This document shows positions 14,289-63,620 of a stretch of 64,000 nucleotides of DNA, one piece after another. Source of the stretch: Saccostrea echinata. Taxonomy: Eukaryota. The notes under the pieces were generated by a model. The model was not told where the DNA came from. It did no database searches and saw nothing but the letters and a program-made list of their open reading frames with translations. The translations under genes were made by a program, and so were the position numbers. The stretch lies in NCBI RefSeq assembly GCF_033153115.1, contig NW_026889808.1:496001-560000 (forward strand), written 5' to 3'. Numbering within the stretch: position 1 is the stretch's first letter; each line of letters begins with the position of its first letter.

Positions 14289-14511
14289 TGCCATAAATCA
14301 GATCACTACTTCAGGCTACATATTCGAATCCAAGCATGATAGGGAGTTAGAGAGAAATCGAATTATTTGTGAATAGGCAGAAACCACTCCTTGATATCTT
14401 CAACTTCATGAAAAGCAAAACAATTTCGCCAAATCATATAATATCTATATACAAAGAGGGCAAAGGATTTATAAATGGACAAAATTCGCCTTTTGGCATT
14501 TCTACGCAGCC

Positions 14512-17500
14512 ATGTATTGGTATTCATTTTTAAATACATTTCTGGCGGCCTTGTTTTATATTTTTATGGCACATGGAAATGAAATGGGCAATGGTTGCAT
14601 ACCAGAGTGTAAAGTCACTAAGACCAATATAACTGACAACCATCTCCTCAGCCAAAATGATAAACCCCTGAAAACAGTTTCCATATCATTGTTCCTTGGA
14701 CTGAAAGAAAATAACTGTTCCATTAAGAATCAATGTCTTTTGAATAGCACAAGGATTTTGGAACACTACAACTTTAGTGATGATTCTATTGTAAGTGTTT
14801 TTAACTTTCAGTGCTACACGCCTCTTATAATACAAATAACACCGTACACCGGTAGGCATAGGCCAAATATTATATCATATATCCAGGTGATAAAATGTCA
14901 GATGACAGAAGAATCTTTTTACATTCTCGGAAGCATGGTTCTTCCTTTTCACGTGCTTTTGATGGACACAAATCTTCCAACGATTGAAAGTAAAGGCACG
15001 AACAAATCAATGTGCAACCTGATGAAACAAGTGACAACACTATGGATATTTAATAAAGCTTCACAAGATAATGTGACAGACTTGGAAGACATTATAAACA
15101 TGTTTCAGTGCAATCATGACTTTCCAAATATGAAAGATTTGACCATTCAGAACGTTAAGATCAATACGTCTTTATTCGATTTCAGTGCGAAATTTCCTAA
15201 TCTAGTTTCTCTGGAACTTTCACTGACGGGACTTCAAAATCCAATTCAATTTCCTTGGAGTGATTCATCTCCTTTACTCAGTTATAATCTTTCATCTTCG
15301 GAATATCTGCTCAATCACTATGCTAAATCCTTACACATAACTGTAGAAAAGCATCATTTTCGTAGATATCTTAATCTGAACATGAATAATATTTCTATCT
15401 TACAGAACTACGAATTCGAAGGCAGGCTACAAGCACTGAAATTCTCAGGAAACGGACTAACGGAATTACCAGAGAATTTGTTTCAGAAATTGAAACAGAT
15501 TGAACACATTGATATAAGTTTAAATAGCATAAAAAGACTCCCTTCCTCTTTATTTCGAGAACTTCCTTTGCTCAAGCATCTTGATTGCCACTCTAATAAT
15601 TTGACAGAGATACAGATGGATCTATTTATTGATAACAAGGAATTAATCTATATGGACTTTTCACGTAACAGAATCGAGAGAATCCATAAAGATGTTTTCA
15701 GATTCATGGAGAATTTGCAAGAGTTGCATTTACAAAATAATAATATAGTTTCATTGGAAAATGTGGAGTGGCCTTTCTATTCGACGAAACTGGAATTTTT
15801 ATATTTCGACGAAAATCCATTGATCCACCTACCAGACGTAGTATTCTACCTTAGAGCCATCAAACTGGCCAGCTTTAAATATACGCAAATTCATTTCACA
15901 AACTTTACTAAATATGTGAATAATCTAGAATATAGTTCGATAGCCGAACAATTAGTCAAAGGCTCCGTGCCCAAAAATGATCTTAGTTATAATGTTATCG
16001 TTAAAAATCCAAACTTGCTTCTCGATAATATCCTCGATAGAAACCGAAAAATTGATCTTACTGGAAGTAAAATAGACAACTTAAATATCGAATTTTTCGG
16101 AGAGCAACGAGAACTTAAGGAAAGATCAGGTAGAATGAAATTAAAGTTACTCTTGATTTTAAAGTACTTTGAAATCATTTTAGAAGGAACTCATCTTCGA
16201 TGCGATTGTGGTATTACACACCTTAGTAGACTTGTGGCAATCCTCGAGAAGGATGGTTTGCTTGATGGAAAGGAGTATTTCTTCAACGATTGGAAATGCT
16301 CCACTCCCCAAGAATTTAAAGGGAAAAACATGCTGAAAATACAAGAATCAGATACGTATTGTGAGAGAACTATTACAAACTGCCCATCAAATTGTACTTG
16401 TTATTCCAGATCGATAACACACATAACGATTGTTGATTGTCGAAATCGACTATATCGGGACTTGCCCAAAATTTTACCGGAGGGTATTCTCGACCTCTGG
16501 TTTCAGCATAATAACATATCTACGATCAATGAAGAAAATTTACAGTATCTACCGAATATAAGACAACTTCTTTTATCCGAAAATCAGTTAACAAGAATTA
16601 GTGATGGAGCCATAAGTAAAATGACTCTTCTTAGTACGTTGTATGTGGATTCCAATTACCTTGTTTCTCTTCCTAGGGCACTCAGAAATATGCGGCTGAT
16701 GTCCATGAATTTCATAAACAATCCATTAAAATGTGACTGTCATACGAAATGGATAAAACACTGGGTTCTAAAGAATAGCGATGTTGTGGAACGTGTGTCA
16801 GACATCACATGTAATGTAGATGATGAAGCAGAAAAGGGTAACTTTTTGATCCGAATTCCAGATGAAGATTTCGTTTGTTTAGAAGACTTTGACTCAGTTA
16901 AGCATGTAGTCATACCCAGCGTCACCAGTTCCTTGATACTGGTACTTCTCATCATTTTGCTGTGTTTGATGTATGTTTATAGGCTAGAAGTAAAGGTTTT
17001 ACTGTATATTTACTTTGGAATCCATCCATTTGATAAAGATGATAAGGATGGAAAAGAAATCATTGATGTTTTGGTTCTTCATGCCCCGGATACGACGGAA
17101 TGGGTGATGGAAAATGTTGTGAAGTACTTGGAATTTCAGAAAGATTATTACGTTGTGTGTGAAATGATGAGAGATTTTGTCGCTGGTTTTACCTATATGG
17201 AGAACATTGCAAGCATTGTAAAACATAGTAAGCGAATGCTGATAATTCTATCCCCCGAATTTATCGAAGACGACTTGTTAAAAGTAGCTTGGAATGAAGC
17301 GCAAGAAAAGATCAAAGAACTACGAACCAACTACGCCATTGTTGTGTGTCATGACGTAGTCTTGAAACAAGTAATGATAAAAGATATGCAGAGATATATT
17401 AAAAGAGGGCGATATATCGACGCAAATCAGGCGCTATTTCATGAAAAACTACTATACTCCATGCCACAGTATGAGGACCAGCATGGTAGAGTTAAAAGTC

Positions 17501-18243
17501 TTCCCGATATTAAAGACTTTATTCAGGCAACATACGGGGAAGAGGGATTCAATAATGACATGTACAAAAGACATGCTTTTGTTTCCTATTCCGATAGTGA
17601 AATGCCCTATATTATGAATGAATTAAGACCAACATTAGAAAATAATGGATATTTCTTATGCCTGCCTGATCGGGACTTTGTACCAGGTGCTTCAAAAGAG
17701 GAAAACATTTTAAAGGCTATTGACAGTTCCTTACATACATTGTTCATTCTTTCTGGTAACCACCTCGAAGACGAGTGGTCAGTTTTTACATTCAGAATAG
17801 CCAGTGAAAAGTCTTTACGTGTCCGAAGTAATCATTTAATTGTTATCATTGGTGAGGATGCTGACCTAGAAACCATGGACGAGGAAGTTCGATTTTACAT
17901 CAAAACTCACGTGACTCTCAGAGTGAACGAGAAGTGGTTTATTAAGAAGTTATTAAACTCTTTACCAGAAGTTGACGCTCCTATCCTTGATGTGAATGAC
18001 CAAGAGGATGATGATATTAAACACAATGTGCGCCATAAGCATCAGAAAGAAAGGGAGCCCAGGAGGGTGGTGGCTGAAATCAATCATTGTGCATATGACG
18101 ATAATGGGATTGTTAATGGTATGGGAAATGGGTATGCAGGAAACAGGACGGTTAAGTTTATTAAGAACGATAATCATGCTTATGTCAATGATGAAGACTA
18201 TCAAATTGAATTTACAGACATTTCCTTAGACGATGATGTTTAG
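14512..18243 (+). CDS. Toll-like receptor (multi-cysteine-cluster type) with two tandem TIR domains, paralog A, 1243 aa
   Basis: Good Kozak context (gcagccATG); signal peptide MYWYSFLNTFLAALFYIFMAHG; LxxLxLxxN repeats; LRRCT (CDC...WKC) + LRRNT (CPSNCTC...VDC) + 3-4 LRRs + second LRRCT (NPLKCDC); TM ~16906-16980; TIR1 ~17056-17466 (CEMMRDFVAG); TIR2 ~17560-17967 (HAFVSYS, CLPDRDFVPG); acidic tail. Single uninterrupted ORF. Confidence 0.95.
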   Translation: MYWYSFLNTFLAALFYIFMAHGNEMGNGCIPECKVTKTNITDNHLLSQNDKPLKTVSISLFLGLKENNCSIKNQCLLNSTRILEHYNFSDDSIVSVFNFQCYTPLIIQITPYTGRHRPNIISYIQVIKCQMTEESFYILGSMVLPFHVLLMDTNLPTIESKGTNKSMCNLMKQVTTLWIFNKASQDNVTDLEDIINMFQCNHDFPNMKDLTIQNVKINTSLFDFSAKFPNLVSLELSLTGLQNPIQFPWSDSSPLLSYNLSSSEYLLNHYAKSLHITVEKHHFRRYLNLNMNNISILQNYEFEGRLQALKFSGNGLTELPENLFQKLKQIEHIDISLNSIKRLPSSLFRELPLLKHLDCHSNNLTEIQMDLFIDNKELIYMDFSRNRIERIHKDVFRFMENLQELHLQNNNIVSLENVEWPFYSTKLEFLYFDENPLIHLPDVVFYLRAIKLASFKYTQIHFTNFTKYVNNLEYSSIAEQLVKGSVPKNDLSYNVIVKNPNLLLDNILDRNRKIDLTGSKIDNLNIEFFGEQRELKERSGRMKLKLLLILKYFEIILEGTHLRCDCGITHLSRLVAILEKDGLLDGKEYFFNDWKCSTPQEFKGKNMLKIQESDTYCERTITNCPSNCTCYSRSITHITIVDCRNRLYRDLPKILPEGILDLWFQHNNISTINEENLQYLPNIRQLLLSENQLTRISDGAISKMTLLSTLYVDSNYLVSLPRALRNMRLMSMNFINNPLKCDCHTKWIKHWVLKNSDVVERVSDITCNVDDEAEKGNFLIRIPDEDFVCLEDFDSVKHVVIPSVTSSLILVLLIILLCLMYVYRLEVKVLLYIYFGIHPFDKDDKDGKEIIDVLVLHAPDTTEWVMENVVKYLEFQKDYYVVCEMMRDFVAGFTYMENIASIVKHSKRMLIILSPEFIEDDLLKVAWNEAQEKIKELRTNYAIVVCHDVVLKQVMIKDMQRYIKRGRYIDANQALFHEKLLYSMPQYEDQHGRVKSLPDIKDFIQATYGEEGFNNDMYKRHAFVSYSDSEMPYIMNELRPTLENNGYFLCLPDRDFVPGASKEENILKAIDSSLHTLFILSGNHLEDEWSVFTFRIASEKSLRVRSNHLIVIIGEDADLETMDEEVRFYIKTHVTLRVNEKWFIKKLLNSLPEVDAPILDVNDQEDDDIKHNVRHKHQKEREPRRVVAEINHCAYDDNGIVNGMGNGYAGNRTVKFIKNDNHAYVNDEDYQIEFTDISLDDDV

Positions 18244-20081: not shown

Positions 20082-21110
20082 ATGAAAAAAGTGAATTTAA
20101 CAGTGATCGATCTAAAAAAAATCTATAAACAATAGAAATCTGTGAAGAGGGCATAAACACGGAAACCCTGGAAATTCCAGAGGTGGGTGCCTTGGAGGAG
20201 TAAGCATCCCCTGTTGACCGGGCATACCCGCTTTGAGCCTTATGTATTGATCAGGTAGACGGAGCATTCGGTAATCATGTTCAGTATAAAAACAAAGGCC
20301 TAACAATTGTTATGAAACACGTTTGCCAAAATATGACCCAATGATAGGTTACCTTTGCTAACAATGTCATTATTATGACCATAGAACTTACGAAATTCTG
20401 ACTTTAAACGAAGTTCTTGAAATCCCTGTAATATTAACTTATTTGTCAGTAGCCTCCCTCTGTTTAAAAATTAATCGTACTCGGAGTATGCTCCTGAGTA
20501 TGGAATAAGTTGGAAGATGTTAACACCATATGCAGGATATTACTACATAAATAAGGAAAGTTGACGAAGGAAAAGCCGAAGTTTTCTCGTTTGTTATACA
20601 ATTTAGTTGTTTGTTGGCCCTTTTCAGTAAAATATCCAAATATGAAACTGATGTGGCGGACTCTGGGGTGTCTTTTATTCAAGTTCAATGGGATATATTG
20701 AGTCGAGATATGAACGGAAATAACTATTGTTAATTGATAATACGTCGTTTATCTGAATGTCGAGTTGAAGGCCACTGCAAGTGTTATTTTTCTCACGTAG
20801 AAGTTTTTGAAGAAATTCTACTGTAAGGGACAGATCGGTTAATAAAGAAGCACAATTATTGCCCATCTGAATTCCAACAGCTTGTTGGAAGGCCTGGTCT
20901 CCGAAGACTACATAAATGCTGTCAACGAGGAACTCTACTATCCTTTTAATATCAAATTTTTGTATGTAGAATCAGAGTCATTCTTAACAAAGTAATTTTG
21001 TTAGTGACGAATTGCAATCACAAGATACCAAAATTTCTGACTTTCATTTTTATTGAAGAAGCAGTTGTCTATGATATCAAAAAGTTTAGTTTTTAATTTA
21101 TCGTCAGGAA
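20082..21110 (-). mobile_element. Decayed Penelope-like retroelement, 5'-truncated
   Basis: IPDDKLKTKLFDIIDNCFF, MGNNCASLLTDL, FSFVNFPYLCSNI, plus the family 3' UTR. Confidence 0.85.
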
Positions 21111-21913
21111 TTGGTTGTACCAATTGCGTCCCGTTATAAGCAGACCTTTTTTTGTATTCATATGAAGCAGAATTTGTCCAAAATCTTGTACGTGAAAAAG
21201 AAGAAAACACTTGCTGTGGCCTTCAACTTGACATTTAGATATATCGACAACGTATTGTCAATTAACAATGGCTATTTCCATTCTTATGTCGATACGATAT
21301 ATCCCGGTGAGCTTGAGATAAAAGATACCACAGAGTCTGACACATCTCTTTCATATTTGAATATTTTACTTGAAAAAGACGTTAATTGTAATCTAACAAA
21401 CAAGCTTTATGATAAACGTCAACTTCCCTTACTTATGCAGTAATATACCTTCATCACTTGCATACGGGTAATATATCTCTCAGTTGATTCGATACGCAAG
21501 AGCATGCTCTACGTATGAAAAATTTCTAAAACGAGGTAAATTATTGACAAACCAGTTGATGAAACAAGAATATCAGCAGTCTCGTTTAAAGTCATTTCGT
21601 AATTTCTATGGTCGATACAATGACCTTGTCAGCAAATACAATTTATCATTGAGTCAGATGCTGACTGACGTTTTTCATACTAATTGTTAGGCCATTATTT
21701 ACATACTGAATTGTCGACGGATTTTTCCGTTATTACCCGATCATGACAAGGAGCACACGGCGCGTGTGACCCATTCGCCAGGGGATGCTCACTCCTCCGT
21801 GGCACCTCATCCCACCTTTAATGTTTGGAGGTCCGTGTTTGCTCTGCTCCTATTTTGTATTGTTTAATGAACTTTTGAGCTTGAATACTGTTCGTTATCT
21901 CCATATATTTCAT
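21107..21913 (+). mobile_element. Decayed Penelope-like retroelement, 5'-truncated (best-preserved copy)
   Basis: FRYIDNVLSINN...LYDKR, LIRYARACS...VFHTNC* (stop 21688-21690). No C-terminal GIY-YIG before the stop, consistent with an N-terminal-EN (Naiad-like) PLE. Confidence 0.85.
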
Positions 21914-35412: not shown

Positions 35413-37294
35413 AAAAAACTTTAGATTTTAAAGATCTCTGTAATAAAAAGCTCTTCATAAAATTAGATGCATACCATTGATTAGACATTTTTTTTTAATC
35501 TTTTGATTCACGTGTAAAGGCATTATGAATATACTCCTTTCCTCTCCTCCACAAATCAAAACATCGGAAAGATGAATTTATATCGTCTGTAAAAATCGGC
35601 GTATTTTGAAAAAAACCCGACGAACATCTAGCCAAAAATAGATAACTAAGTGATAAATGAAATAATAAAAACAACTTCAAACCCAGCTCCTGTAAATTTC
35701 AAGACGTGCCACATATCTGTACAAATAAGTCTATCGAATCAACTTTCAATCTTTTTTCATCATCTCTCATGTGTTGCTTGGAGGCAAACATTTTTTGTAA
35801 TTTAGATTTGCATTGTTTTTAATATCTTTATTAGCATATGTATATCAAATACTTTGAATTTTTAAATGAATGGGATTTTTTTTTTGTTTTTAAGAGGCGG
35901 ATATACATGTACTGTATTTAAAAACAACTGGGACTATTTTTGTTTAAGTTGCAACTATTTCGAAATGAACATACTTGAGCGCCTTTTTTTTTTTTTTATC
36001 AATTTGGGTGAAAATTACGTGACTCACGTCCATCTTCCCCTATTTATGTCGAAATATTCCACTATCACTTTCATAAGGTCTCCAACTGATTCGGTATTCA
36101 AAGGAATGTTCTCCGTACACTCAATTTTATTTTAAACCGAGGTAAACTACTTTAAAACAGTTTGATTTTAGCTCTGATCACAACATTTCGCAAATATTTT
36201 CGCCGTTGAAATGATATTCTTTGGAAATACATATCTTTATCCTTGGGCCATTCCTTTTTAAGTTAATTAACATTGACTTTGGATTATTCTTTTTACCTGA
36301 TCAATATACAGAGTTTATGGCGAGTGTAATTGGCATCTGATCCCACTCCTGTTGATTTCATCAGATTTTATATTTCGCCCTGTTCGCAATTTGTATCTTT
36401 TATAGGATTTGTGAATTTGATAACTATTTATAATGAAGCCAAAAGTTTCATTTTATTATAAATTTCAGTAGAAAATCAGCATTGTTAATCCAACATTGTT
36501 AATCAAGCATTGCTAATCCAGCATTGTTCATCCAACATTTTGTGCGTCGACTGCAAAAACACATCTCTTTGATTTAAAAGACCTGTTTTATATTTCGAAA
36601 GTTAATTCTACGTCTTGTTAACTTCTTCATATGCTGGAATAAAAATTCTATCTATTTTTTTCGCCCATGGAAACCTTTTGCATCAAAATATAGTCCCTGT
36701 AGATAAACATTTCTAGTTTATGAAATCATCTCATGGTTTGTTTCTTTGTTTAGGAGGGGATGGGAGTCCCAGTGGCTTTGTTAAAATATCAAAATGAATG
36801 GTTTTCGATGATTGAATTTGAAATGTGCAAATTTTAAATTTAATTATCCTGACAAATGCGAACCTCAAGTGAGACATGAAACCTTCCTAGAATACACTGT
36901 ATATATCAAATAGTTGTGATTTGTACTTACGTACTTTTCGTCATGAATTGATTTAGTTTTAATTCTGCTGGTAATTGTTTTATATTTCGATGCACACACA
37001 AAAAAGTTCTGACATTTTCTTTTAGATATTTATTCAAATTTAATTCATTACAGTAGACAAACGTCTTTCCATGCATTCGATTTACTACTTTTGTACTACA
37101 TTAAACATTTTTTAAAGTTTGTATCATGCATTCTTGGCACGTTAAATTTACAACCTGCGTATAAATGTAAATGTCTTTAAAAGATGAAAAAGACAAAAGA
37201 TAAAAGCTTTTTATTCCGTAAAGAGGAATTTATTTCCTACTTTTCATTGTTTGTATACATATCCTATCTTTGTGTATTCTTTGGCTTAAAATTT

Positions 37295-37319: not shown

Positions 37320-37474
37320 TGATTTCCAAGAAATTTGGAATAAACTAGAGTGTTAAACCAGACTCTTTAAGGACAAAAGTAAGGAAGAAATAATGCAAAA
37401 AGAATTTTTATTTCTGATTAGAAGACATTAAAATCGAAGACCTTTATTTCAATAGACGATGATTTTTAGTGAAA

Positions 37475-40400
37475 ATGATTTGGCATCCACTTTTCCCTGT
37501 CATAATGTCCTTCGTTACCATCGTTTCTAGCATTAAGGCTACAGGAACAGGAAGTGACGAACCGGAAGTAAAATCTAAAGCTAATTACTGTAACATTTCT
37601 GAATGTCACCTTAGAATAGAAGAAATAAGTACATCAAGGTTGCGTAATCGTCTGGATTCTCCACTTCAATTAAGCGGGAAAAGGGTCACTATAGACAACA
37701 AAAACAACTGTACAATAAATTCAACTTTACTACGAGAGAATTTGGACATGAAAATTGACCTCAGTATTGGATTAATTTCCGTCAAATGTTCCAACAACAT
37801 CAGCATTCATTTTTCATCAGACGGAACATTATTTCACACCGATATGTTTCTACATCTCCAAGTTTTAACCTGCAGTATCTCTATGGATTCCCTTTTTGTG
37901 TTAAATAGAAACTTTGGAAATATTTATTCATTGGAACTTGACAGGACACCTTTACCTAGTGACCAAACCTCTTGCAATTTCTCTTATCTTACGAAAGATG
38001 TATGTAAAACATGGGAATCTGTGCATTCAATAAAGCTTTCAGCATCTACATCAGAAAGTCCACATAATAATATTTCTAGGGTTTTTAACTGCCCAGGAAA
38101 CCTAACTGCAGTTAGGGAATTGATACTAAGAAATTGGCAAATTGATGCACATGGAGCATCTTTTCTCAAGGAGAAGTTTCCGTTTTTACAAAATTTAGAG
38201 ATTTCTTTTTCAATGATGACGATTCCTCCTCAATTTCCATGGGATGAGACAAATCGAACGTTTCCTCATAATTTTTCAGAATCTGCCTATACAATATTTC
38301 ACTATTTACATAGTTATCATGTTGTTCTTCCAAGACAATTCTACAAACGTACTATCAATCTGAATTCCAATTCCATAACGGATCTTTCCGACTTTCGCTT
38401 TTTTGGATACATTCAACTATTAGATCTGTCATACAATAAACTTCAGGTTTTAAATGAAAGCTCATTTAATGGACTGCAAGGCGTTCAACATTTAAATCTG
38501 AGGAATAACAAGCTGAAAACAATTTCAAGTCAATCATGGAGAAGTCTGAAATTGTTACGTCACTTGAACCTGCACTCTAATGACATAACAGAAATACAGC
38601 CTGATATGTTTGACAATAACCCGGAAATTGAATATTTAGATCTTTCAAACAACAATATCAATAGAATAGAAGAATATTCCTTTACAAATCTATTCAAGTT
38701 AAAAGAAATTCGCTTAGAATCCAACGCTATAGTAAATCTACCAAGCAATTTTCTTCCTTCCAATTCACTTAATTTTCAATATTTATATTTAAATCAAAAT
38801 CCTTTAATAGATTTTCCTTTGTCAATTGTTTACTTTCGATCCTTAGAGAAAGTAAGTCTCCGACACACAAATATTGACCTACATGAATTTAAAGATAATG
38901 AGCTGCTACTGACTATTAACTACTACGCTATTAGAACTAGTGTAGCAAAATGGTCGGAAGAAAATATCAATGGAAATAAGGAAAAAAGTCCAGAACGACT
39001 TCGACAGATTGATTTATCGGGATCTCGAGTGGAAAATATAGAGCTAGACGTGTTTAAGAGTGGAAGAGATACTAACAAATTCAAACACCTTATTTGGAGA
39101 TTATCTGTTATTCTGAAACATTTTGAATTTGTTCTTGATGGAATCAGTTTACAGTGTGATTGTAGAATAAATCAATTCAACAGGTTTGTACAGGAAGCCA
39201 TAAATAGAAATCTTTTTAGTGGCAGAGAGTATTTCTTTAATGATTGGAAATGTTCTTTTCCTTTGGAATTTAAAGACAAACCACTGGTCAGTATAAAGGA
39301 ATCGAATACCTACTGCGTCACCATCACCCCACACTGTCCACGAAATTGCACGTGTCTGAAGCGATCAGTTAGCGGTATCATCATTGTCGATTGTCGTCAG
39401 CGTGGTTATTTCTCTCTTCCCGAGCAACTCCCTGATGGAATTCTAGACATCTGGTTTCAGTACAATAATATATCAGTAATTCGAAATATTGGCTATTTGA
39501 ACCGTATTCGCCGGCTCTATCTTTCCCAAAATCAAATTGTGGAAATTGAGAACGATGCCATTGAGAGCATGCACAACATCCGTCATCTTCATGTCGACTC
39601 CAACAATCTTGTTGTTATGCCTACCAAAATCCAGGAAAGGGATATGAAGTATATAAATATTGATAACAATCCTTTTAAGTGCGATTGCAATGCTCTTTGG
39701 ATGAAGCACTGGTTGCTGTCAAATTCAGAATCATTTTCTGACGTCACGGGTATAACGTGCAACATCGATGATCAAAATGAAAAAGGGACAAAGTTTGTAA
39801 ACATTCCAGATTCCGACTTTATTTGCTTGGATGAATACAATACACTTAAGGATTTGATAATTCCAATCTCAGTCAGCACTTTATCTATAATCCTGATTAT
39901 AATTGGCATATGCTTTATCCACCTATTCAGCTTTGAAGTAAAAGTTCTTATGTTTATGTATTTTGGGATCCACCCCTTTGACTTAGACGAAGACGAATCG
40001 AGAGAAGCTGTTGATGTCCTTGTTGTCCATGCTCCTGGATTAACGAATTGGGTGATGGAGAACATTGTGGGTCCATTAGAAGCACAGAAAGCCCAGTATA
40101 TTGTATGCGAAATGATGAGAGATTTCATCCCTGGATATTCCATTCAAGATAATTTTGAAAGCATTGTAAAAAATAGCAAGCGAATGATTTTGGTACTTTC
40201 CCCCGAAATTCTCGCTGACCAGTTGCTAAAATTAGTTTGGAGTGAGGCACAAGAAAAAATAAAAGAATTGCGATCGAATTATGTGGTAATGGTATACCAT
40301 AATCTTAATGCGAACGATATCATGAACGAGGATATGTTGCGTTATATAAATCACAGTAAAACCATGACATCAAATGATCGACTTTTGCGTCAGAAACTTC

Positions 40401-41644
40401 TATATTGTATGCCTGTCATATTTGAGAATACTGATGAGGAGGATCAACGTCTGGAAATTCGACATTGTGTGAAAAAGATGTACGGTGACGAAATAGGTAA
40501 ACAAGTTCTGTTTGAACGCCATGTTTTTATTTCATACTCCAACGCCGAGATAAGATGTTTGTTGGATGAAATAAAACCGCTGCTAGAGGACAAGGGTTAT
40601 ACCTTATGTCTTCCTGACAGAGATTTCATACCGGGTGCACCACAGGAGGAGAATATCCTTAAAGCGATAGACACCTGTCTTCACACAATATTTATTCTGT
40701 CTGGGAATCACCTGCAAGATGAGTGGTCCATTTTTACATTCAGAACTGCATGGGAAAAATCACTCAGAAACAAGAGTAATTATCTGATAGTAATTCTAAG
40801 TGAAGATGTAGAGCTCGATGATATGGATGATGAAATCAAGTACCATGTGAAGACGCACGTTACGCTACGAATTGGCGATGAGTGGTTTGCGACGAAACTT
40901 TTAAACTCACTAGTTGATGTTAATACTTATGCACGATGTGTTGTAGATGGAAACAACCGAGAAGACTTCTGTTGTTTAGATTACGATGAACAGAGTATTT
41001 CCGATAGCATGTTGTTCGACAATCATTGTGATATTGCAGCCAGGGATAGTAGAATTGAAAACGTCGAACATGGGATACAAATTGAAGAAGAAAAACGTTG
41101 GCGTAGGGTTGTGTCTGTTGATATTCATAAAGAATTTGAAGTCGAAAATATGCAAGGGATCGAATACAATGACAATGAAGATTTTATAAATGTTTATGAA
41201 ATTGAAGCGGTTGAATACAATGCTACTGAAAGTAATTGCAATGGGCAAGAAAACAGTTTTTGTGAAGTGCAGGAAAAATGTGAATGTAGATCAATCATTG
41301 AGCACTCTGACGGTGATGAATTTGAAGATTTAAGATTTTTGCATTTTAACAATAATACAGAGAGAGTAATTAGCTTTAATATTAAAGAGGTGTTTCATCT
41401 TAATGTTACAGAAGATGAAGAAAACCTGTCAGATATCAAAAACGAAAATGTTTGTTCTAGTGTCAGTTCTGTTAGAGATTTCGACCAAAGCAGGAATTTC
41501 CGTAGGTTAAACATCCACTCGGAAACGGATGAGAGCAATATACATGTTACTCCTCTATCCAATCAGCTGAAAACTGACTATGACGTCAGCGATTGTGATG
41601 TAAGTGACAGTGACAATAATACTGACTCCGAAAGTAATAATTAA
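37475..41644 (+). CDS. Toll-like receptor with two tandem TIR domains, paralog B, ~1389 aa
   Basis: The ORF track starts at a GTG (37469); the first ATG is 37475 and is followed by a signal peptide (MIWHPLFPVIMSFVTIVSSIKA). Same architecture as paralog A; TM ~39858-39930; TIR1 ~40004-40414 (RDFIPG); TIR2 ~40511-40912 (HVFISYS, CLPDRDFIPG); ~240-aa acidic tail. Confidence 0.95.
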   Translation: MIWHPLFPVIMSFVTIVSSIKATGTGSDEPEVKSKANYCNISECHLRIEEISTSRLRNRLDSPLQLSGKRVTIDNKNNCTINSTLLRENLDMKIDLSIGLISVKCSNNISIHFSSDGTLFHTDMFLHLQVLTCSISMDSLFVLNRNFGNIYSLELDRTPLPSDQTSCNFSYLTKDVCKTWESVHSIKLSASTSESPHNNISRVFNCPGNLTAVRELILRNWQIDAHGASFLKEKFPFLQNLEISFSMMTIPPQFPWDETNRTFPHNFSESAYTIFHYLHSYHVVLPRQFYKRTINLNSNSITDLSDFRFFGYIQLLDLSYNKLQVLNESSFNGLQGVQHLNLRNNKLKTISSQSWRSLKLLRHLNLHSNDITEIQPDMFDNNPEIEYLDLSNNNINRIEEYSFTNLFKLKEIRLESNAIVNLPSNFLPSNSLNFQYLYLNQNPLIDFPLSIVYFRSLEKVSLRHTNIDLHEFKDNELLLTINYYAIRTSVAKWSEENINGNKEKSPERLRQIDLSGSRVENIELDVFKSGRDTNKFKHLIWRLSVILKHFEFVLDGISLQCDCRINQFNRFVQEAINRNLFSGREYFFNDWKCSFPLEFKDKPLVSIKESNTYCVTITPHCPRNCTCLKRSVSGIIIVDCRQRGYFSLPEQLPDGILDIWFQYNNISVIRNIGYLNRIRRLYLSQNQIVEIENDAIESMHNIRHLHVDSNNLVVMPTKIQERDMKYINIDNNPFKCDCNALWMKHWLLSNSESFSDVTGITCNIDDQNEKGTKFVNIPDSDFICLDEYNTLKDLIIPISVSTLSIILIIIGICFIHLFSFEVKVLMFMYFGIHPFDLDEDESREAVDVLVVHAPGLTNWVMENIVGPLEAQKAQYIVCEMMRDFIPGYSIQDNFESIVKNSKRMILVLSPEILADQLLKLVWSEAQEKIKELRSNYVVMVYHNLNANDIMNEDMLRYINHSKTMTSNDRLLRQKLLYCMPVIFENTDEEDQRLEIRHCVKKMYGDEIGKQVLFERHVFISYSNAEIRCLLDEIKPLLEDKGYTLCLPDRDFIPGAPQEENILKAIDTCLHTIFILSGNHLQDEWSIFTFRTAWEKSLRNKSNYLIVILSEDVELDDMDDEIKYHVKTHVTLRIGDEWFATKLLNSLVDVNTYARCVVDGNNREDFCCLDYDEQSISDSMLFDNHCDIAARDSRIENVEHGIQIEEEKRWRRVVSVDIHKEFEVENMQGIEYNDNEDFINVYEIEAVEYNATESNCNGQENSFCEVQEKCECRSIIEHSDGDEFEDLRFLHFNNNTERVISFNIKEVFHLNVTEDEENLSDIKNENVCSSVSSVRDFDQSRNFRRLNIHSETDESNIHVTPLSNQLKTDYDVSDCDVSDSDNNTDSESNN

Positions 41645-43419: not shown

Positions 43420-44260
43420 AGTTGGTACGGTTATAAGGTGTTCCTCTGTCTGTCTGTCTGTAATTGTTAACATTTTTTTAAAGTATTGCTTTTAAAAATT
43501 TTCTGTCAATTTTAATAAAACTTGGTTCAAAATAGACTTCATCAGGATGCACAGTTCTATTTATCGGTTTCTGACTTCTATAAACAGCGATGTTATGGTT
43601 ACAAAAATTTTTTTACAGATATCTGAGATTTTTTCGTCTACATTTATGGTCCGATTTCAATAAAAATCGGTCGGTTCATAGAAAGAATAAACCATGATTT
43701 TTTTTAAAAGATGTTCATTGGTTTTGATTTCGATAATTGTGCTGCCATGGTCAAAATCTTTAGACATTCCGGTAAAATTTCTTCATAATGCAGCATTATT
43801 TTCGAATGTTTTGTATTAACATAGCTCTTTACAAGGGTAAACTTTAAAAATATACACAATTATGAATAGCAGTTTTTGATTTCAATGAACGAGTTTTTTA
43901 TGATTATTAGAAAAAATTGTGTTACTTTTTTTTTTTTGAAATACTTATCGTCGTACGATTTTGCTCTGATCTTTTTTTTTTTAAAAATGGTATTTTATTC
44001 CTTTCCTTGTATTAAGATTTTGGTGGATGCGTTGCGAAATCTGGTAAAAATTATCGTTATAAATACATTTGTACTATTCCTCGTAAAGTTTTCGTACCTT
44101 TTCAATTAAACCTGGTACAGCAGACGGAACGTAAGAATACATAGTTTTATAAATGTCAAGGATCTGGGATACTAAAAAAAAAATATGTAATAGAAACTTA
44201 AAACTAGCTTGTACGGATTTTATTAATGATAAAACACATTTTTATCAAAAATAGCCCTAT
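43420..44260 (+). mobile_element. Degenerate HINE-like element remnant
   Basis: (GTCT)n at ~43446, followed by recurring 'att(t)caat.aaa..tggt' satellite-like units. Confidence 0.35.
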
Positions 44261-45721
44261 TAAATCAGCTTTATTTTTTTTCATTTTCGCCAAGTTTTTA
44301 CCTTTATATATATAATACAATTCAATGCAAAACGTAAAAAGAAAATGAAATTCTTAAAAATGAAAAATAAATTTACACTAATTTTACCATGAAAAATTAA
44401 TTTGAATGTAAAAACAACAAACTATTAGGAGATATGATTAAAAACACTTTCCCAGGTTTTTAGGTATTCCTATGATCTTAAACACAAAAGTGTTTAATGT
44501 ATTTCACAAACCATCTCCTTGTATGACTTGTACATCAGAATAACATCTATCTTTAATGTTTGAGTTACTCCTCTTGGGACAATATCCTGACAGGTTGGCA
44601 TACAACCTGCTTTTCTGAGAAAAACTGCTGCAAAAATATATGTTTAAGGTAACATTTGATTTGAAGATTCATGTGACATGAAGAAGCATGATTGATTTAC
44701 ATTTGATCTGATAATGGTATATCATGGTGCTATTTGTTCGATACCCAGAATATAAAAGACCATCTTTCCTTCAAAGTAAGCAGTAGTCAGATAAAAAAAA
44801 AAACATTAAAAGAATGCTACATGTATATCATATTGCATTAGTTTTTGTTCTCTAACCTACACAGATTCATTTCTGTTTCCATTTGAGTTTGAAAAAAGTA
44901 TACTAGTAATATTTTAGTCAAACACATAATTAAAAGTTAAAAATTTAATACAAAGTTAGATTTCGGTTTTAAAAAAGATAGAAACTTATGTTTCAGTTCA
45001 AATAAAAATAAAATTTCACTGAACGAAATTAAAATCCACCGTCAATTTAAAAATTACAATAAGAAAAGTAAAACAAAAATCAGTACCAGACATGTTGCAA
45101 GTACATCTTATGCTTTTTCTCTTCCCATTCTTGAGGAAAGGGCATATGCTTCATTCCTCCTAGTGATATTGTAATAAGTAAACTCCTCACTATTCCTTTC
45201 TCTTCGAGACACGCAAGGAACAAGATCAATTTTTGTAAGTTCCTGTGAAATATAAGCGTCTTTCAAATTTTAACAAAATAGAAATATTAAGAAAAAAATA
45301 ATGATAGTATTGTAATTATTTAGCATACATAAGTATCGGGTTTATCAGTGGATAAATCTAAGCAACGCTCATAAAGAGACATTTACTTCTACTTGGCACC
45401 TGATCCCACCTATGATGTTTCCAAAGTTCCTTGTTTTTGCCCTATTCACAATTTATTTTCTTTACTAGATTTATGAGATGATTGATCGCTGTTCGTTATC
45501 TTCACATCAATGTTCTATTCTGTTAGATAACTCGAATAACCATTCTCTGAAAACCTGAACTCTCAGAGGCGTCTGATTCACCATCTTTCAATGAACTATT
45601 TATTCTTACCTTTAGAAAGAATGAATACCATGAATCACAAATTGAGATATTTTTTAGTGCAATTATGATCCGAAATAAAATTAATGACGATTTGTATAAT
45701 AATAACTCTATAGAAAAATGT

Positions 45722-54184: not shown

Positions 54185-54450
54185 AAGCAACAGAAAAGAT
54201 TTCACCACTTGACTTGCTGTTCGGGCGCTGATAGGTCCACCTGAACATGTGCTTTACAATATAACCAACCATATCAAAATTTCAAGCAGAACCTAGAAGT
54301 GCGATCGACAAGTCGAAAAGTTGTTAATTTCTACTGAATACTCGAAAAATAACTTTCTTGCCAAGCACTAAATCTTATTGTGAACTCTTGCTATTTCTTA
54401 CGTTTGCCTGCAGCTGACAAGAAGTACGGAAAAATTTTGGTTTTGATAAA

Positions 54451-56544
54451 ATGGATTTCCTCAATATGCATTTAAACTCTAATTTTTTTCTGCATCTCTG
54501 CATTTTGACTGTTTATGTTTCTACCGCTAACATCGTGACAAAGTGTGGCATCCCAGAATGCATTTCAGCCAAAGTCTCTTCTCCTTCCTATAATGTTATG
54601 AAAATGAACAACAAGCCCCTGAAGACCAATGTAACAGGGTTTTATCTTGTCCCTCCAGTATCAAACGAATGCTACCTCAGGACCTCAGATATAATGGAAA
54701 GTTATCACTTCGATGGACACCAAATGGTCGGTGTGTTGGTTTTACGGTGTTCCTCCAGAGCTATAATTCATCTTATACCTGATGTAAGACCAAAATATTC
54801 AAATGTGTTATTTCAGATTCAGATAGATAAATGTCTTCTCACTACGGACAGTTTAAACGCCATCAGTCAGAGGGTAAAGATCAACCATTTATCATTTATT
54901 GACACGTATCCCCTGGTGAGCCACTCATACTGTGATGGGTCTAGCGTAGTCAACGCAGACTGTGGATTCTGGAGTTCTGCCACAGCTATCGGCATTATTC
55001 TTCCGCAGAACCTAAATTCCATTAATATTTCAAGACTTTTCTGGTGCAACAGAACGTTTCCTAACATTAAACAATTACTTTTTCGAAGATGGGACTTAAA
55101 TAATCAAGATCTTCTCTACCTCAAAACAAGATTTCCAAACTTACAAGATTTGCAAATATCGGATTCCTCTCTGAAAGTACCGCCTTCATTTCCTTGGAAT
55201 AATGAAACCTTCAGATTTAACAATAATATGTCGTATTCAGAGACTGGATTTTACGACTCAGCATCGGTCTTCAACATTGAAATCGAACCAAACATTTGGA
55301 AGCGTGTGCTAAACTTGAACTCAAATAACATACAGGTTTTGACAAATTTTATGTTTGATGGGCATCTAGACATGTTAAAGCTTTCAAGGAATGGACTTAT
55401 GTCTGTAGGACCATTCACTTTCTCCAGAATAAAAGGTCTTCAGCATCTCGACCTAAGCGAGAATTTATTATCAGACATTCCTGCCAATATTTTCCGCGGC
55501 CTCACACGCCTCAGGCACATAAATCTTCATGCCAATCTCCTGTCCATTATTCCTGATGAGATGTTTTATGATAATACAGAGCTTGTCTACCTTGACCTTT
55601 CAAACAACAGCATAACAATAATTGGGTCAAATGCTTTCTCAAGATTACATCATCTAGAAGACTTACGACTTGAATATAACCGTATTGTCACAATCAGTTA
55701 CTCCATGTTTCCAGCATATTCTGTATCTTTTCAGTCTTTGACACTTGATGGTAATCCAATGAAAGAATTACCTGAGGCAATTTTCTATTTCAAAACTTTG
55801 TATGATGTTAGTCTCCGGTATACTAATATCGACTTTAAGAACTTTACGCAAATGTTACTTGATTTAGATTTTTCTCTCCTGGCAGAAGGAAACGCACAAG
55901 GTCAGACAACAACAGAAGATGAATTGCTAACGAGATCTCCTCGGAAATTGAAAAGGATTGACCTCACCGGCAGTAAAATAAATAATCTTCATCTTAAGTA
56001 TTTTGGGACTGATATCTCTACTAGAAATTCTGCTATACTCAGAATGAAACTCCTTATGCTACTGAAATATTTTCATCTGATTCTTACCGACAATCCAATA
56101 AACTGTGATTGTAAAATTAACCATCTAACTAGATTTATAAAATATGCCCTAGCTAAAGGTTTTCTACGAGGAAACGAATATTTCTTTAACGACTGGAAGT
56201 GTTCTAATCCAAAAGAACTAAGATATATACCGGTAACGCAAGTTCCAGAAGCAGAAACCTACTGTCCCAAAGACATAGCTAATTGCCCGGTTGAATGCTC
56301 ATGCTACGAACGGTCTATCAGCGGCGTCACTATTGTTGATTGTCGAAATGTCGGACTGAGAGAACTTCCTAGATCACTTCCAGAAGGAATTTTAGACTTG
56401 TGGTTTCAGAACAACAACATTTCAACTCTTACACGAGAGGAATATCTCCCCAGAACTCGACAACTTTTACTAACTGGAAATAAAAATATTAGAATTAATA
56501 CAAATTTACTTCAAAATCTTCATATCTTAAAAATTACCACATAA
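54451..56544 (+). CDS. Ectodomain-only TLR paralog C (signal peptide + LRRs + LRRCT/LRRNT; no TM, no TIR), 697 aa; secreted protein or truncated pseudogene
   Basis: Collinear with A/B (CGIPEC, FPW, LNLNSNNI, IDLTGS, EYFFNDWKCS, LPEGILDLWFQ). It stops within the second LRR block, and no TM/TIR-coding sequence is recognisable downstream in the window. AATAAA at 56823-56828. Confidence 0.8.
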   Translation: MDFLNMHLNSNFFLHLCILTVYVSTANIVTKCGIPECISAKVSSPSYNVMKMNNKPLKTNVTGFYLVPPVSNECYLRTSDIMESYHFDGHQMVGVLVLRCSSRAIIHLIPDVRPKYSNVLFQIQIDKCLLTTDSLNAISQRVKINHLSFIDTYPLVSHSYCDGSSVVNADCGFWSSATAIGIILPQNLNSINISRLFWCNRTFPNIKQLLFRRWDLNNQDLLYLKTRFPNLQDLQISDSSLKVPPSFPWNNETFRFNNNMSYSETGFYDSASVFNIEIEPNIWKRVLNLNSNNIQVLTNFMFDGHLDMLKLSRNGLMSVGPFTFSRIKGLQHLDLSENLLSDIPANIFRGLTRLRHINLHANLLSIIPDEMFYDNTELVYLDLSNNSITIIGSNAFSRLHHLEDLRLEYNRIVTISYSMFPAYSVSFQSLTLDGNPMKELPEAIFYFKTLYDVSLRYTNIDFKNFTQMLLDLDFSLLAEGNAQGQTTTEDELLTRSPRKLKRIDLTGSKINNLHLKYFGTDISTRNSAILRMKLLMLLKYFHLILTDNPINCDCKINHLTRFIKYALAKGFLRGNEYFFNDWKCSNPKELRYIPVTQVPEAETYCPKDIANCPVECSCYERSISGVTIVDCRNVGLRELPRSLPEGILDLWFQNNNISTLTREEYLPRTRQLLLTGNKNIRINTNLLQNLHILKITT

Positions 56545-58156
56545 TATTTGTATAATATGCTTTACTTCTTATGAGTTGTCGTAAACGGGTAATACTATTA
56601 TTGAAATTATCATTCATTTTCTGTGAGAGAGATGTTTATTTCTGATTTGTACATGTATGTTTATGGTTTTATTTTATGTGTATGAAGACATGAAGTGTGT
56701 GAAATCAGTGTCGTGAAATGTAGCGAAAAGAATACTCAAAATGTAGTTTTATGCATAACTCATCATTTGCATGTTATCATAACCTTATTTAATTTTTAAA
56801 TCTATTTCAGGTATGCATTTTGAATAAAATGTGTTTTTCTTTATTCATATTAATATATCCTAGGACGAACAGTTTGATAAAGTTTTTCTTATTATTATGA
56901 CTTTGTTCTTTATTCTATTGTTTGGAAGATTAGATTTACAGACAAATCTACGTTGAAGCAGCACATTTTTTCATTAAAAATGCGTTTAAAAACCTATGGT
57001 TGTTATAATGACCTTGTCTTGAAATACACCTCTGATGTTTTTGGAAGTCCATGCGTGTTTGCTCTGCTCCTTATATGTATTGTTTAAATGAACTTTTGAG
57101 CTTGATAAATGTTCGTTCGCATCATATTACATTTGCCTGACATGTTTCAAACCAATTTTATCCATTGTTTTTATATCAAATTTGAGTAAAAATTATCCCC
57201 TCTAACTGATCACTACAATAGCGGTCACGGCTGGTTTGACCGGTCAACAGCGGATGTTTTATCCTCCTATCACCTGATCTCAAGTCAGAAATTTCAGGGG
57301 TCCATGTTGTATGCCCTGTTCACAAAATGGTATTGCATAGAAGATTTTGGTGATCGATCACTATTCGTTATCTTCACTTTTTTTCATTTTGATAAATATA
57401 TGAAAACGTGATTTTTAAAATGTCAGTCTATACCTAAATTGTAACTTTCTCTTTCACTTGATATATTCCAGAACACTAAAAATAAAAAAAACTTCGGAGT
57501 CTGCCACACGTTTTTTCTATAGCGATATTTTACCGACTATAGACGTAAATAGTCAGTTGCAAATGACAACTTAAGTATATGACAAACAGAGGGATTTCAA
57601 TTTTTCCGTTGTCAGCTTCCTCCGTGTTGTAATACAAATCACTAAATGCTCTTGTTTCAAAAAAGGCAAGCTATCGTTGGATGAAATATGGAGAAAACGA
57701 AGAGTATTCAAGCTCTCAGTCCATTAAACCAATACAAATTAGGAGCAGAGCTAACACGGACCTCCAAAAACATCAGAGGTGGGATCAGGTGCCATGGATG
57801 AGTGAGCATCCCCTGCTGACCGGTCACACCCGCCATGTGGATTCAATTTTTAGAATGAACTGTTTCATACAAATTGCTAGGCCCTTGTTTTTTTTTATAC
57901 TAATATTGACTAAGGATTTCTTCGATATATCATCAAGTATCGTGCATGAATTGTGATCTATATTAGAAATACCTTATTTTCACTTCACTGATAGAGAGTA
58001 TTTTGTCAAATTCTTTTGTATGCTTCTTTGTAGTGTGATGAATCAGTAACTGATTTTCTCTACTCTAGTTATCCACAGCCTATTCTGTTAAAAGCATGCT
58101 CATTCTTTTAGTACTTTTATCCTATGCATATACTTGAACCACTCATTTTTTTATGT

Positions 58157-59065
58157 ATGAAATGTAAAGATCAGGAACATTGATTATACTGAAAAGTTCA
58201 TTAAAAGAATAAAATTTTGTACAGAGCTAACACAAACCTCAGTTGCCATGTAGTAGTAAGCATCGCCTGCCCGCCGGTCACAATCACAATGTGCTCCTTG
58301 GCATGATCGGGTAAACAGAAAAACTCTTAGACAATTCACTGTGAAGATCATCGATATGAAAGATGTCAGTCAACATTCGACTTAACAACAGATTGTATTT
58401 GTAAACAAGGTCATTGTTTTGATCATAGAATTTTCGAAATGTTGACTTTAAACGAGATTGAGATTCTTGAAACTATTTATTTGTCAATAGATGGCTCGTT
58501 TTCGAAATTGTTCGTAGGTGAACATACTCTTGCTCATCGTATCAATTTGGGGTACATAAACTCTATGTGCAGCTGATAATGATATATTACCTACATAAAT
58601 AAGGTAAGTTGACGATAGAAAAGTTGAAGTAATTCAATTTATCATAAAGTTGTGTTTTATTTCGAGTTCAAACGGTTATCTCGAATCAACGTAGGTATGA
58701 ACCTGAATATAGTTAAATTTATATATCTGAATGTCGAATTGAAAGCCACAGTAAAAATCTTCTTCTTTTCCTGTAGAAGTTGTTTTTGAAAAAAAAAAAA
58801 CTTTTTCATGTTAATACAAAAACAGGTCTGCTCATAATGGGCACAATTATTACCCTTCAAAATTCCAACAGTTGTTGGAAAATCTTGTCTCTGAAAATTA
58901 TTAGATAATGCCAAAGAAAAGCTCAGGCGTGTTTCTGATATCATCCTCGTAGTAGTTAGTTGTGTGTAGAATCAAAGTGTTTTAACAAAAAAAAAATGAA
59001 GATGACCGATGACAAGGTATGCAAATTTACTAGTTCCATTTTTATTTTATTGACGAAGCAGTTTA
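58157..59065 (-). mobile_element. Decayed Penelope-like retroelement fragment
   Basis: VGILKGNNCA, VAFNSTFRYI, followed by the family 3' UTR. Confidence 0.75.
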
Positions 59066-60588: not shown

Positions 60589-61589
60589 TATACCTTGCTC
60601 CTATTTGTACCTTTCACAAAAATATTAACTACTGAAAAGGAAAAACGCACTGTGGTACAGCATATTTTATAAGTGGTGTAAATCAGATGTGGATTCTCAA
60701 AAACTGCAAAGAACTTTTAAAAAATTAAAAATCACCAAATTTTTCAAAAGGAAGTAACATCAAAACGTTAGACTTTTCGACACTTTATACAATCATTTCT
60801 CATGATTAATTAAAAAGTAGGCTTTTTGGTATCATAGACAGTTGCTTCTTCAATAAAAATGTAACCCGGAAATTTCCATACTTTTCGATTGGCCATAAGC
60901 AGAATTGCTTTGTAAAAATCACTTTGACTCTACACACAAATACGCTTAAGTTGATATTAAAAAGATGCTGGAGTTCCTCACTGACAACATTTATGTAGTA
61001 TTTGGAGACCAGGTTTTCAACAAACTGTTGGAATCTCGGTGGGAAATGATTATGCTCTTGCATAAGCCGACCAGTTTTCATGTTCCTATGAAGCAGAACT
61101 TATTCAAAAACTTGAATGCACATGATAAGAAACACTTGTTGTGACCCTCAACTAGACATTCATATATATATTGACGAAGTATCAATTAACCATATTTTTT
61201 CCCTTTGATATATCAATACGATATATCCCAGTGAACTCGAAAGAAAAGGTACCACAGATTCTGCCATATCTGTTTTATATTTGGAAATTTTACAGACCAT
61301 ACACGATAAGCGCCATCTAAAAAATAAATTGTATAAATAACGAGAGGATTTTTAAGTTTTTCCATTAGCAACTTTCCTTATTTATGTAGTAATATTCTGC
61401 AATCATCTGTAAACGGGGTTTACTTCTTCCAACTTATTCGATACTCAAGAGCATGCTCCGAGTACGATCAATTTTAAACTAAGGCAGGTTACTGGCAAAT
61501 AATTTTATGTTACAGGGATTTCAACATCCTCGTCTAAAGTCAGTATTTCGTAAATTCTATGGTCATTAAAATGACCTTATTAACAAATA

Positions 61590-63326: not shown

Positions 63327-63620
63327 GTCGCCCGTGTGGCGCAGTGGTTGGGGAGTCTATTTTAGAGTCGCGGAAAAAGGAGCTAATTCTTACGTCGCGG
63401 GTTCGAAACTGTGGAACGTGCAAATCGGTCCTTCGGATGAGACCGTATTAACCGAGGTCCCGTGTTACAGAAGGTGTTGGCACGAAAAAGATCACTTACT
63501 GCTCAATGGCCCTGAGTGCCGAGTAAAGGTCTAAATTTGTAGCCCTCCACCTGCAAGTGGTGGCGTCTCCATATGAGTGAAAAATTTGCAAGAGGGAAGT
63601 TAAACAACAAACAAACAAAA
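63327..63620 (+). mobile_element. tRNA-derived SINE with Meta-like central domain, near full length
   Basis: A box tggcgcagtgg, B box ggttcgaaac, central ccgaggtcccgtgttacagaaggtgttggcacgaaaaagatc, (AAAC)n tail. Confidence 0.75.

What the first reader, a model, noticed from the sequence alone, without database searches (positions are those of the whole stretch)
54451..56830. Paralog C: open ectodomain with a decayed 3' end suggests a maintained soluble TLR rather than a fresh pseudogene
Seen: 697 codons without a stop, with the signal peptide and LRRCT/LRRNT cysteines preserved. The last ~20 codons (NIRINTNLLQNLHILKITT*) are still faintly LRR-like but drifted and AT-rich. No trace of LRRCT2, TM or TIR appears in the next 7.4 kb, which is TE-filled. 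AATAAA lies ~280 nt after the stop. Inference: the truncation is old and the upstream part stayed under selection.
Basis: partly seen in the sequence, partly recalled or inferred. Interest (0 to 1): 0.7.

Follow-up and report, generated by a model that had tools for sequence, protein, structure and literature searches.

The report
Ancient secreted Toll ectodomain of oysters
Oysters carry a Toll-like receptor gene that stops before its membrane anchor at the same point in four oyster genera and is better conserved than its signalling neighbours, so it is a maintained gene, predicted to make a secreted receptor head that likely captures a ligand outside the cell.

Summary
The 697-codon ORF (54451-56544) is real and is not a fresh pseudogene. 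Orthologs in Saccostrea cucullata, Ostrea edulis, Magallana angulata and Crassostrea virginica stop at the same alignment column (28 of 33 full-length proteins shown; the other 5, a second C. virginica copy, run 6-7 residues longer). They keep a signal-peptide-like N-terminus and 16 mature cysteines, and none has a TM or TIR. No LRRCT2-TM-TIR remnant lies in 90-97 kb downstream, and the genome search found no orphan one. Contigs from two public runs cross the stop unspliced. The gene is the last of a five-gene tandem cluster whose other four members are twin-TIR (SPP-2TIR) mccTLRs. Its ectodomain is more conserved than theirs (72% vs 49% between S. echinata and O. edulis), most of all on the concave face. 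The tail is not decaying: it has a fixed length and folds as a short terminal repeat in a confident model. Best reading: an old, oyster-specific, likely secreted Toll-type ectodomain that binds its own conserved ligand and works like fish TLR5S in principle. Secretion, ligand and sign of effect are untested. New variant of a known kind.

The parts
54451..56544 (+). Paralog C coding sequence, one exon, 697 codons plus TAA; the second in-frame ATG at 54466 (M6) is the one that aligns with the orthologs' start
54451..54528 (+). Predicted signal peptide, residues 1-26, with an AxA-type cleavage site before N27; site conserved in 5 of 5 orthologs tested
   Evidence: hydropathy and -3/-1 pattern only; no SignalP available
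54529..54870 (+). Beta-rich N-terminal cap (about residues 27-140) with C32, C37, C74, C100, C128
   Evidence: AF2 model; cysteines; boundaries approximate
54871..56091 (+). Main LRR solenoid (about residues 141-547); concave-face positions strongly conserved among orthologs
   Evidence: Pfam LRR_8 E 5e-26
56092..56271 (+). LRRCT1 cysteine cluster (residues 548-607)
56281..56382 (+). LRRNT2 (residues 611-644); together with LRRCT1 the hallmark of mcc/P-type Tolls
   Evidence: Pfam LRRNT E 9e-5, 22.4 bits, under the 25.8 cut-off; invariant C612, P613, C616, C618, C631 in 50 aligned rows
56389..56481 (+). Two LRR strands of the second LRR block (residues 647-677), 77% mean identity over four genera
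56482..56544 (+). Remodelled C-terminal 20 residues and stop: a shortened last repeat that ends on a strand (predicted cap); LRRCT2, TM and TIRs absent
54385..54413 (+). Pyrimidine tract ending in CAG 37 nt before the ATG: candidate acceptor of a 5' UTR intron (untested)
   Evidence: sequence; no contig covers it
56823..56828 (+). AATAAA, candidate poly(A) signal, at chance frequency
14512..18243 (+). Paralog A: full twin-TIR mccTLR (LRR ectodomain, TM, two TIR)
37475..41644 (+). Paralog B: full twin-TIR mccTLR

Best explanation
Paralog C is an old, maintained oyster gene for a Toll-type ectodomain without membrane anchor or TIR, predicted to be secreted and likely to bind a conserved ligand on its concave face, which would let it capture or present that ligand outside the cell and so tune Toll signalling. 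Shown: intact single-exon ORF, same stop in four genera, purifying selection, descent from the twin-TIR TLR cluster beside it, no TM/TIR partner piece found. Predicted: signal peptide cleavage giving a 671-residue protein with 16 cysteines and 8 N-glycan sequons that folds as a Toll-like solenoid closed by a short last repeat. Inferred: after tandem duplication in an oyster ancestor, one copy lost LRRCT2-TM-TIR-TIR, its new end was fixed as a cap, and it specialised on a slowly changing ligand (a host protein or an invariant microbial molecule), not necessarily the ligand of A, B, D or E. It cannot signal by itself.
For: Same stop column in 28 of 33 full-length orthologs shown and 6-7 residues later in 5. 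Mature length 670-671 and 16 cysteines in 5 of 5 tested. C clade 100 SH-aLRT inside a clade with A, B, D, E at 99, with Pinctada outside (quick tree). Ectodomain identity S. echinata-O. edulis 72% for C and 49% for B; S. echinata-C. virginica 63% for C and 38% for B; C-Magallana 66% against 49% for A and its unnamed 546-member sister cluster. Concave positions invariant in four genera 51 of 72, convex 32 of 63 (Fisher p 0.02). 28 of 40 listed cross-species differences at third positions. X1 contig 56168-56586 crosses the stop with no change; an X3 contig matches to 56545 and then runs on unlike. All 8 close LRRCT2-TM-TIR hits in the genome lie in open frames of 1238-1393 aa. AF2 pLDDT 89.9, pTM 0.84; top Foldseek hits are Drosophila and Aedes Toll ectodomains, E 9e-16 to 9e-11. 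In those Tolls the ligand binds the N-terminal concave side (PMC9427763, passages), which C keeps.
Against: No protein, secretion, ligand or functional data. Signal peptide judged by hydropathy only. Whole-model TM-scores to Toll are modest (0.39-0.45), and the second aligner ranks generic extracellular LRR proteins first, so the fold does not single out an immune role. Between the two assembled copies 4 of 5 CDS changes are non-synonymous; the number is small but it does not show constraint. C's concave face shares 29-33 of 72 positions with each sibling, about what siblings share with each other (23-30 of 72), so nothing ties it to their pathway except descent and position. The tree is a quick one without bootstrap. 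The species of A's sister cluster is not named.
Confidence: 0.6

Rival explanations
1. A dedicated decoy or dominant-negative for the neighbouring twin-TIR receptors: it binds their ligand, or pairs head-to-head with their ectodomains, and blocks signalling.
For: It sits in the same tandem cluster in S. echinata and beside the B ortholog in C. virginica (LOC111136266, -268, -269 on one contig). It keeps the N-terminal surfaces that insect Tolls use for ligand binding and inactive head-to-head dimers, and lacks the juxtamembrane part that must meet for signalling (PMC9427763 passages).
Against: A decoy should track its receptor's surface. C is 34-37% identical to every sibling, shares no more concave residues with them than they share with one another, and evolves more slowly than they do.
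Confidence: 0.17
2. A secreted LRR protein that has left immunity: a developmental, adhesion or matrix role with a host partner.
For: Stronger conservation than the receptors fits a host partner. C. elegans TOL-1 bound to latrophilin is among the top fold matches (8suf). Some bivalve TLRs are stage-specific rather than infection-responsive (PMC10279657 passages).
Against: No expression data here. It stays linked to the TLR cluster. A review reports TM-less TLR homologs induced by OsHV-1 in C. gigas (PMC12521104 passage; whether this gene is among them was not checked).
Confidence: 0.13
3. Not free in solution: held at the cell surface or in the secretory pathway by a partner, as an accessory chain of a receptor complex.
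For: The C-terminal LRR block next to the lost membrane anchor is still highly conserved (residues 646-677, 77%), as expected of a contact surface. RP105/MD-1 is among the fold matches.
Against: No TM, no hydrophobic GPI-type tail (last 19 residues KD -0.04 to 0.58), no KDEL-type end, and no orphan TM-TIR chain found in the genome. The same block is equally conserved in A and B.
Confidence: 0.08
4. Recent pseudogene, mis-assembly, or first exon of a receptor spliced to a distant TM/TIR exon.
For: AT-rich end, repeats downstream, and 4 of 5 changes between the two copies non-synonymous.
Against: Same stop in four genera and in both assembled copies; contigs cross the stop unspliced; no exon candidate in 90-97 kb; third-position bias.
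Confidence: 0.02

Closest known systems
Twin-TIR mccTLRs of bivalves (SPP-2TIR in Saco et al. 2023, PMC10279657; 'twin-TIR TLR' in PMC6836662)
   Same: Parent family. Same ectodomain with an internal LRRCT-LRRNT cluster, 34-37% identical to the four siblings, single coding exon, nested in their clade.
   Different: No last 1.5 LRRs, LRRCT2, TM or TIR. The Saco survey kept only proteins with LRR, TM and TIR (passage), so a gene like this would be filtered out.
Teleost soluble TLR5 (TLR5S)
   Same: A separate gene for an ectodomain-only paralog of a membrane TLR, kept across many species (PMC6043800 passages).
   Different: TLR5S derives from a vertebrate single-cluster TLR and shares flagellin with TLR5M. 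C derives from a protostome-type twin-TIR Toll, has no known ligand, and its concave face differs from its siblings'. Independent origin.
Scallop LRR-only proteins CfLRRop1-6
   Same: Bivalve proteins made of LRRs only, reported to bind microbial molecules (PMC5877582 passages).
   Different: Described with 1-4 LRR domains and not as Toll-derived in the passages read. C is a whole mccTLR head with a traceable receptor ancestor. Sequence relation not tested.
Drosophila Toll and Aedes Toll5A ectodomains
   Same: Best Foldseek matches (4lxr E 9e-16); same two-block architecture; the ligand-binding N-terminal block is retained.
   Different: 15-17% identity, TM-score about 0.4; they are membrane receptors for Spaetzle. 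Recalled, not retrieved: engineered or mutant stop alleles of Drosophila Toll give secreted ectodomains that enhance wild-type signalling; C would be a natural, fixed counterpart.
RP105/CD180
   Same: TIR-less TLR paralog that modulates a signalling TLR (function recalled; fold match 3t6q E 2e-8).
   Different: RP105 keeps a TM segment; C has none.

Membership tests
SPP-2TIR / twin-TIR mccTLR | LRR ectodomain with an internal LRRCT-LRRNT cysteine cluster | tested here: met
SPP-2TIR / twin-TIR mccTLR | Descent from the family (tree position of the ectodomain) | tested here: met
   C clade nested with A, B, D, E, SH-aLRT 99, quick tree of 46 rows
SPP-2TIR / twin-TIR mccTLR | Juxtamembrane LRRCT and transmembrane helix | tested here: not met
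SPP-2TIR / twin-TIR mccTLR | Two intracellular TIR domains | tested here: not met
   so it is a derivative, not a member receptor
Soluble TLR (TLR5S type) | Own gene encoding only the ectodomain of a membrane TLR paralog | tested here: met
Soluble TLR (TLR5S type) | Maintained across species under purifying selection | tested here: met
Soluble TLR (TLR5S type) | Cleavable signal peptide | tested here: inconclusive
   hydropathy and conserved AxA|N site in 5 of 5; no dedicated predictor
Soluble TLR (TLR5S type) | Protein found in extracellular fluid | not testable with these tools
   needs proteomics or expression
Soluble TLR (TLR5S type) | Binds the ligand of its membrane paralog and changes its signalling | tested here: inconclusive
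   concave residues shared with siblings 29-33 of 72, like sibling to sibling; no binding data
Soluble TLR (TLR5S type) | Orthology to vertebrate TLR5 | tested here: not met
   nearest relatives are bivalve twin-TIR mccTLRs; it works like TLR5S at most, it is not one
RP105/CD180-type TIR-less TLR | Single TM helix with a short tail | tested here: not met
Bivalve LRR-only proteins (CfLRRop) | Sequence homology to the CfLRRop proteins | not tested
   sequences not fetched; only review passages read
Truncated pseudogene | Lineage-private stop, frameshifts, neutral divergence | tested here: not met

The most novel reading that the evidence does not exclude
Oysters independently evolved, at the base of the family (up to about 180 million years ago by one published estimate), a dedicated secreted protostome-type Toll that binds a conserved endogenous or microbial ligand and feeds or restrains the twin-TIR receptors. 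It would be a natural invertebrate counterpart of fish TLR5S, and a soluble bait for finding the unknown ligand of molluscan mccTLRs.
Probability: 0.35. Interest if true: 0.7.

Novelty: new variant of a known kind. Interest (0 to 1): 0.5.

Why it matters
Domain-based TLR surveys discard genes without TM and TIR or treat them as fragments. Here such a gene is the most conserved ectodomain of its cluster in every pair that could be compared. No ligand for bivalve twin-TIR Tolls turned up in the passages read. A naturally secreted, self-capped, well-folded ectodomain is easy to express and can be used directly in pull-downs, so it makes that question testable in farmed oysters. It would also show that soluble TLR genes arose more than once.

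Tried and rejected
Run search: no RNA holder listed on record; X1-X3 are guessed to be RNA and are contigs only, so expression level, strand and transcript ends are not shown. No contig covers 53620-54660 or 56587-56980, so the 5' UTR intron and the poly(A) site stay untested. Complex prediction of two copies of residues 27-520: no answer (score 0.00, alignment not used), no evidence either way. Spaetzle (PF16077) search of the genome was blank, and so were the controls, so absence is not shown. Search for longer homologs of residues 20-300 found none, but it also missed A and B, so it is weak. The profile search shows a gap from 1397 bits (C) to 534 bits (next family member), but it holds one representative per 50% cluster, so a full-length C ortholog could hide there. 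Metagenome contigs: 598 pattern matches, no relative, so no codon-model dN/dS was possible. First AF2 run with 5 rows was unusable (pLDDT 46.7). Low divergence between the two assembled copies in the CDS (5 of 2094) against the 3' flank (35 of 1854) was rejected as evidence of selection, because the 5' flank is also low (7 of 1500). A split-receptor idea (C plus a separate TM-TIR chain) found no orphan chain among 118 matches from 150 of 197 candidates scored. Earlier scan findings: three look-ups, nothing. Paper searches for the six accessions, for soluble or decoy invertebrate Toll and for TIR-less oyster TLR in plasma returned 0; searches listed nothing on this gene by title or abstract start; a search for the Drosophila stop alleles found nothing relevant.

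Full report
Observation. The window holds three long open frames on the + strand: A (14395-18243), B (37463-41644) and C (54418-56544). A and B carry LRRs, a TM segment and two TIR domains each; C carries LRRs and a weak LRRNT match only. C aligns with A and B at 37% and 34% up to the second LRR after LRRNT2 and stops about 100 residues before their TM. That hexamer occurs 1.75 times per kb here, so it is weak. Half of the 7.4 kb downstream matches other fetched loci, including RT fragments.

Not an assembly error or a first exon. The genome holds a second copy of the locus on contig C25 with the same stop and 5 CDS substitutions, 4 of them non-synonymous. tblastn and a family profile of the missing C-terminal part found nothing credible in about 97 kb (C59) and 90 kb (C25) downstream, while finding A and B at E 1e-124 and 1e-114. 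A genome search with A's LRRCT2-TM-TIR1 gave 8 close hits, all in open frames of 1238-1393 aa; the other 110 matches are 32% identical or less (150 of 197 candidates scored). These 8 define four full receptors per copy (D, E, A, B), with C last in the cluster. In run X1 a contig spans 56168-56586 with no difference, 42 bases past the stop, and no joint is listed. In run X3, about 88% alike and so another species, a contig fits to 56545 and then runs on unlike. Both runs are only guessed to be RNA.

The truncation is old. A protein search with residues 1-330 returned 5 clusters among 847 candidates, all of 692-699 aa. Named members are S. echinata, S. cucullata, O. edulis, M. angulata and C. 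virginica. The clusters hold 520 members; 34 were listed, and I dropped one 333-aa fragment. Of the 33 left, 28 end at the same column and 5 (the second C. virginica copy, LOC111136269 type) run 6-7 residues further. The five tested have a hydrophobic N-terminus, an AxA|N site, a mature length of 670-671 and 16 mature cysteines. A paper on the C. sikamea genome gives 63.2 My for C. virginica against Asian Crassostrea and cites about 180 My for Crassostrea against O. edulis (PMC12021676, passages). In a quick tree of 46 ectodomains the C proteins form one clade (100) inside a group with A, B, D and E (99); Pinctada, scallop and mussel proteins lie outside (SH-aLRT only, no bootstrap). So the loss happened after an oyster-lineage duplication and before these genera split.

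Selection. Of the 40 X3 differences listed (109 more rows were not shown), 28 are at third, 7 at first and 5 at second codon positions (p 2e-6). C's ectodomain is more conserved than those of its signalling siblings: 72% against 49% for B (S. echinata-O. edulis), 63% against 38% for B (S. echinata-C. virginica), and 66% against 49% for A and its unnamed sister cluster; D and E share 58-60% with an unnamed JGI relative. On 12 LRRs aligned by hand, 51 of 72 concave positions are invariant in four genera against 32 of 63 convex ones (p 0.02). C shares 29-33 of those 72 with each sibling; siblings share 23-30 with each other. Against this, the two assembled copies differ mostly at non-synonymous sites (4 of 5).

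The tail. The last 20 residues are the least conserved block (45% mean; 75% to O. edulis, 30% to Magallana), but their length is fixed and K678, L690, I692, L693 and K694 are invariant in four genera. In the alignment the last repeat is 21 residues long where A has 24, and it ends on the LxxLxL strand. With a 50-row alignment AlphaFold2 gives pLDDT 89.9 and pTM 0.84, with the tail at 82-88, folded as a helix and a final strand. I read this as a remodelled cap rather than decay; the AT richness follows from its Asn, Ile, Lys and Leu codons (inference).

How it likely works. Foldseek ranks Drosophila Toll, Aedes Toll5A and C. elegans TOL-1 ectodomains first (E 9e-16 to 1e-9, TM-score 0.3-0.45); the second aligner ranks generic extracellular LRR proteins first, at Z about 22. 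In insect Tolls the ligand binds the N-terminal concave side and signalling needs the juxtamembrane ends to meet (PMC9427763, passages). C keeps the first and lacks the second. The simplest reading is a secreted binding protein that cannot signal. Its slow evolution and its own concave face point to its own, slowly changing ligand rather than to a decoy that tracks A or B. I put 0.85-0.9 on 'maintained, secreted protein' and about 0.6 on the full statement that it binds a ligand and tunes Toll signalling. The sign of the effect is open.

Comparison with what is known. The parent family is the SPP-2TIR or twin-TIR group (PMC10279657 and PMC6836662, passages). That survey required LRR, TM and TIR, so C-type genes were filtered out. 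RefSeq already holds the gene models, under the names 'protein toll-like', 'slit homolog 2 protein-like' or 'uncharacterized'. Soluble TLR genes are known in fish (TLR5S) and LRR-only TLRs in amphibians (PMC6043800, passages); LRR-only proteins are known in scallop (PMC5877582, passages). A review notes TM-less TLR homologs induced by OsHV-1 in C. gigas (PMC12521104, passages); this gene may or may not be among them. Passages of the oyster TLR census (PMC4346834) hold no 'soluble', 'truncated' or 'decoy' and mention nine pseudogenes. Ten library searches showed no paper on this gene. The library lacks most subscription journals, where much bivalve immunology is printed, and I read no supplements, so a prior mention is not excluded.

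Verdict. Real, ancient and under constraint. It is not a member of the twin-TIR receptor family by definition but a derivative of it, and it works like a soluble TLR if the predicted secretion holds. New variant of a known kind; interest 0.5.

Noticed in passing
L071 (G000:C59:429001-438000) and L072 (G000:C59:442501-451500): Two more full twin-TIR TLR genes (D, 1246-aa frame; E, 1240-aa frame; 63% identical ectodomains) lie upstream of the window, making a five-gene cluster D-E-A-B-C.
   Followed up: partly
G000:C59:430000-560000 versus G000:C25:25370000-25441000: The cluster is assembled twice at 98-99% identity (likely a retained haplotig). The E-A gap is about 65 kb in C59 but about 15 kb in C25, and a 5.8 kb stretch at window 43512-44311 region differs between copies.
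   Followed up: partly
Proteins P0133, P0119, P0084, P0081: Four other TIR-less offshoots of the same family, each on a different branch, keep a TM with a short tail (RP105-like): Mytilus californianus XP_052082317 (774 aa), a 10-member Logan cluster (759-773 aa), and two unnamed ones. Some may be gene-model truncations.
   Followed up: no
Proteins P0005, P0026-P0034: C. virginica has two copies of C (LOC111136268 with the standard end; LOC111136269 with an altered tail 6-7 residues longer) beside the B ortholog LOC111136266.
   Followed up: partly
Protein P0007 (O. edulis XP_056006695): The RefSeq model starts at a downstream Met and loses most of the signal peptide; Logan members of the same cluster have the full 692-aa form.
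   Followed up: yes
window 10197-10712, 20366-21624, 36035-36127, 57461-57619, 58493-58963, 60914-61498: Broken reverse-transcriptase fragments related to an element further along C59; the label Penelope-like is recalled, not tested.
   Followed up: partly
window 57767-57839 and 63330-63620: Very high-copy short repeats (summed contig depth in the thousands in all three runs); the second looks tRNA-derived (SINE-like), by eye only.
   Followed up: no
window 40970-41644: Paralog B has a long acidic tail of about 240 residues after its second TIR; its O. edulis ortholog also has a long tail with a similar end.
   Followed up: no
L007-L008 (G000:C59 about 614800-616300): A B-box/NHL-type (TRIM-like) reading frame about 62 kb downstream of C, judged by eye from the translation.
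   Followed up: no
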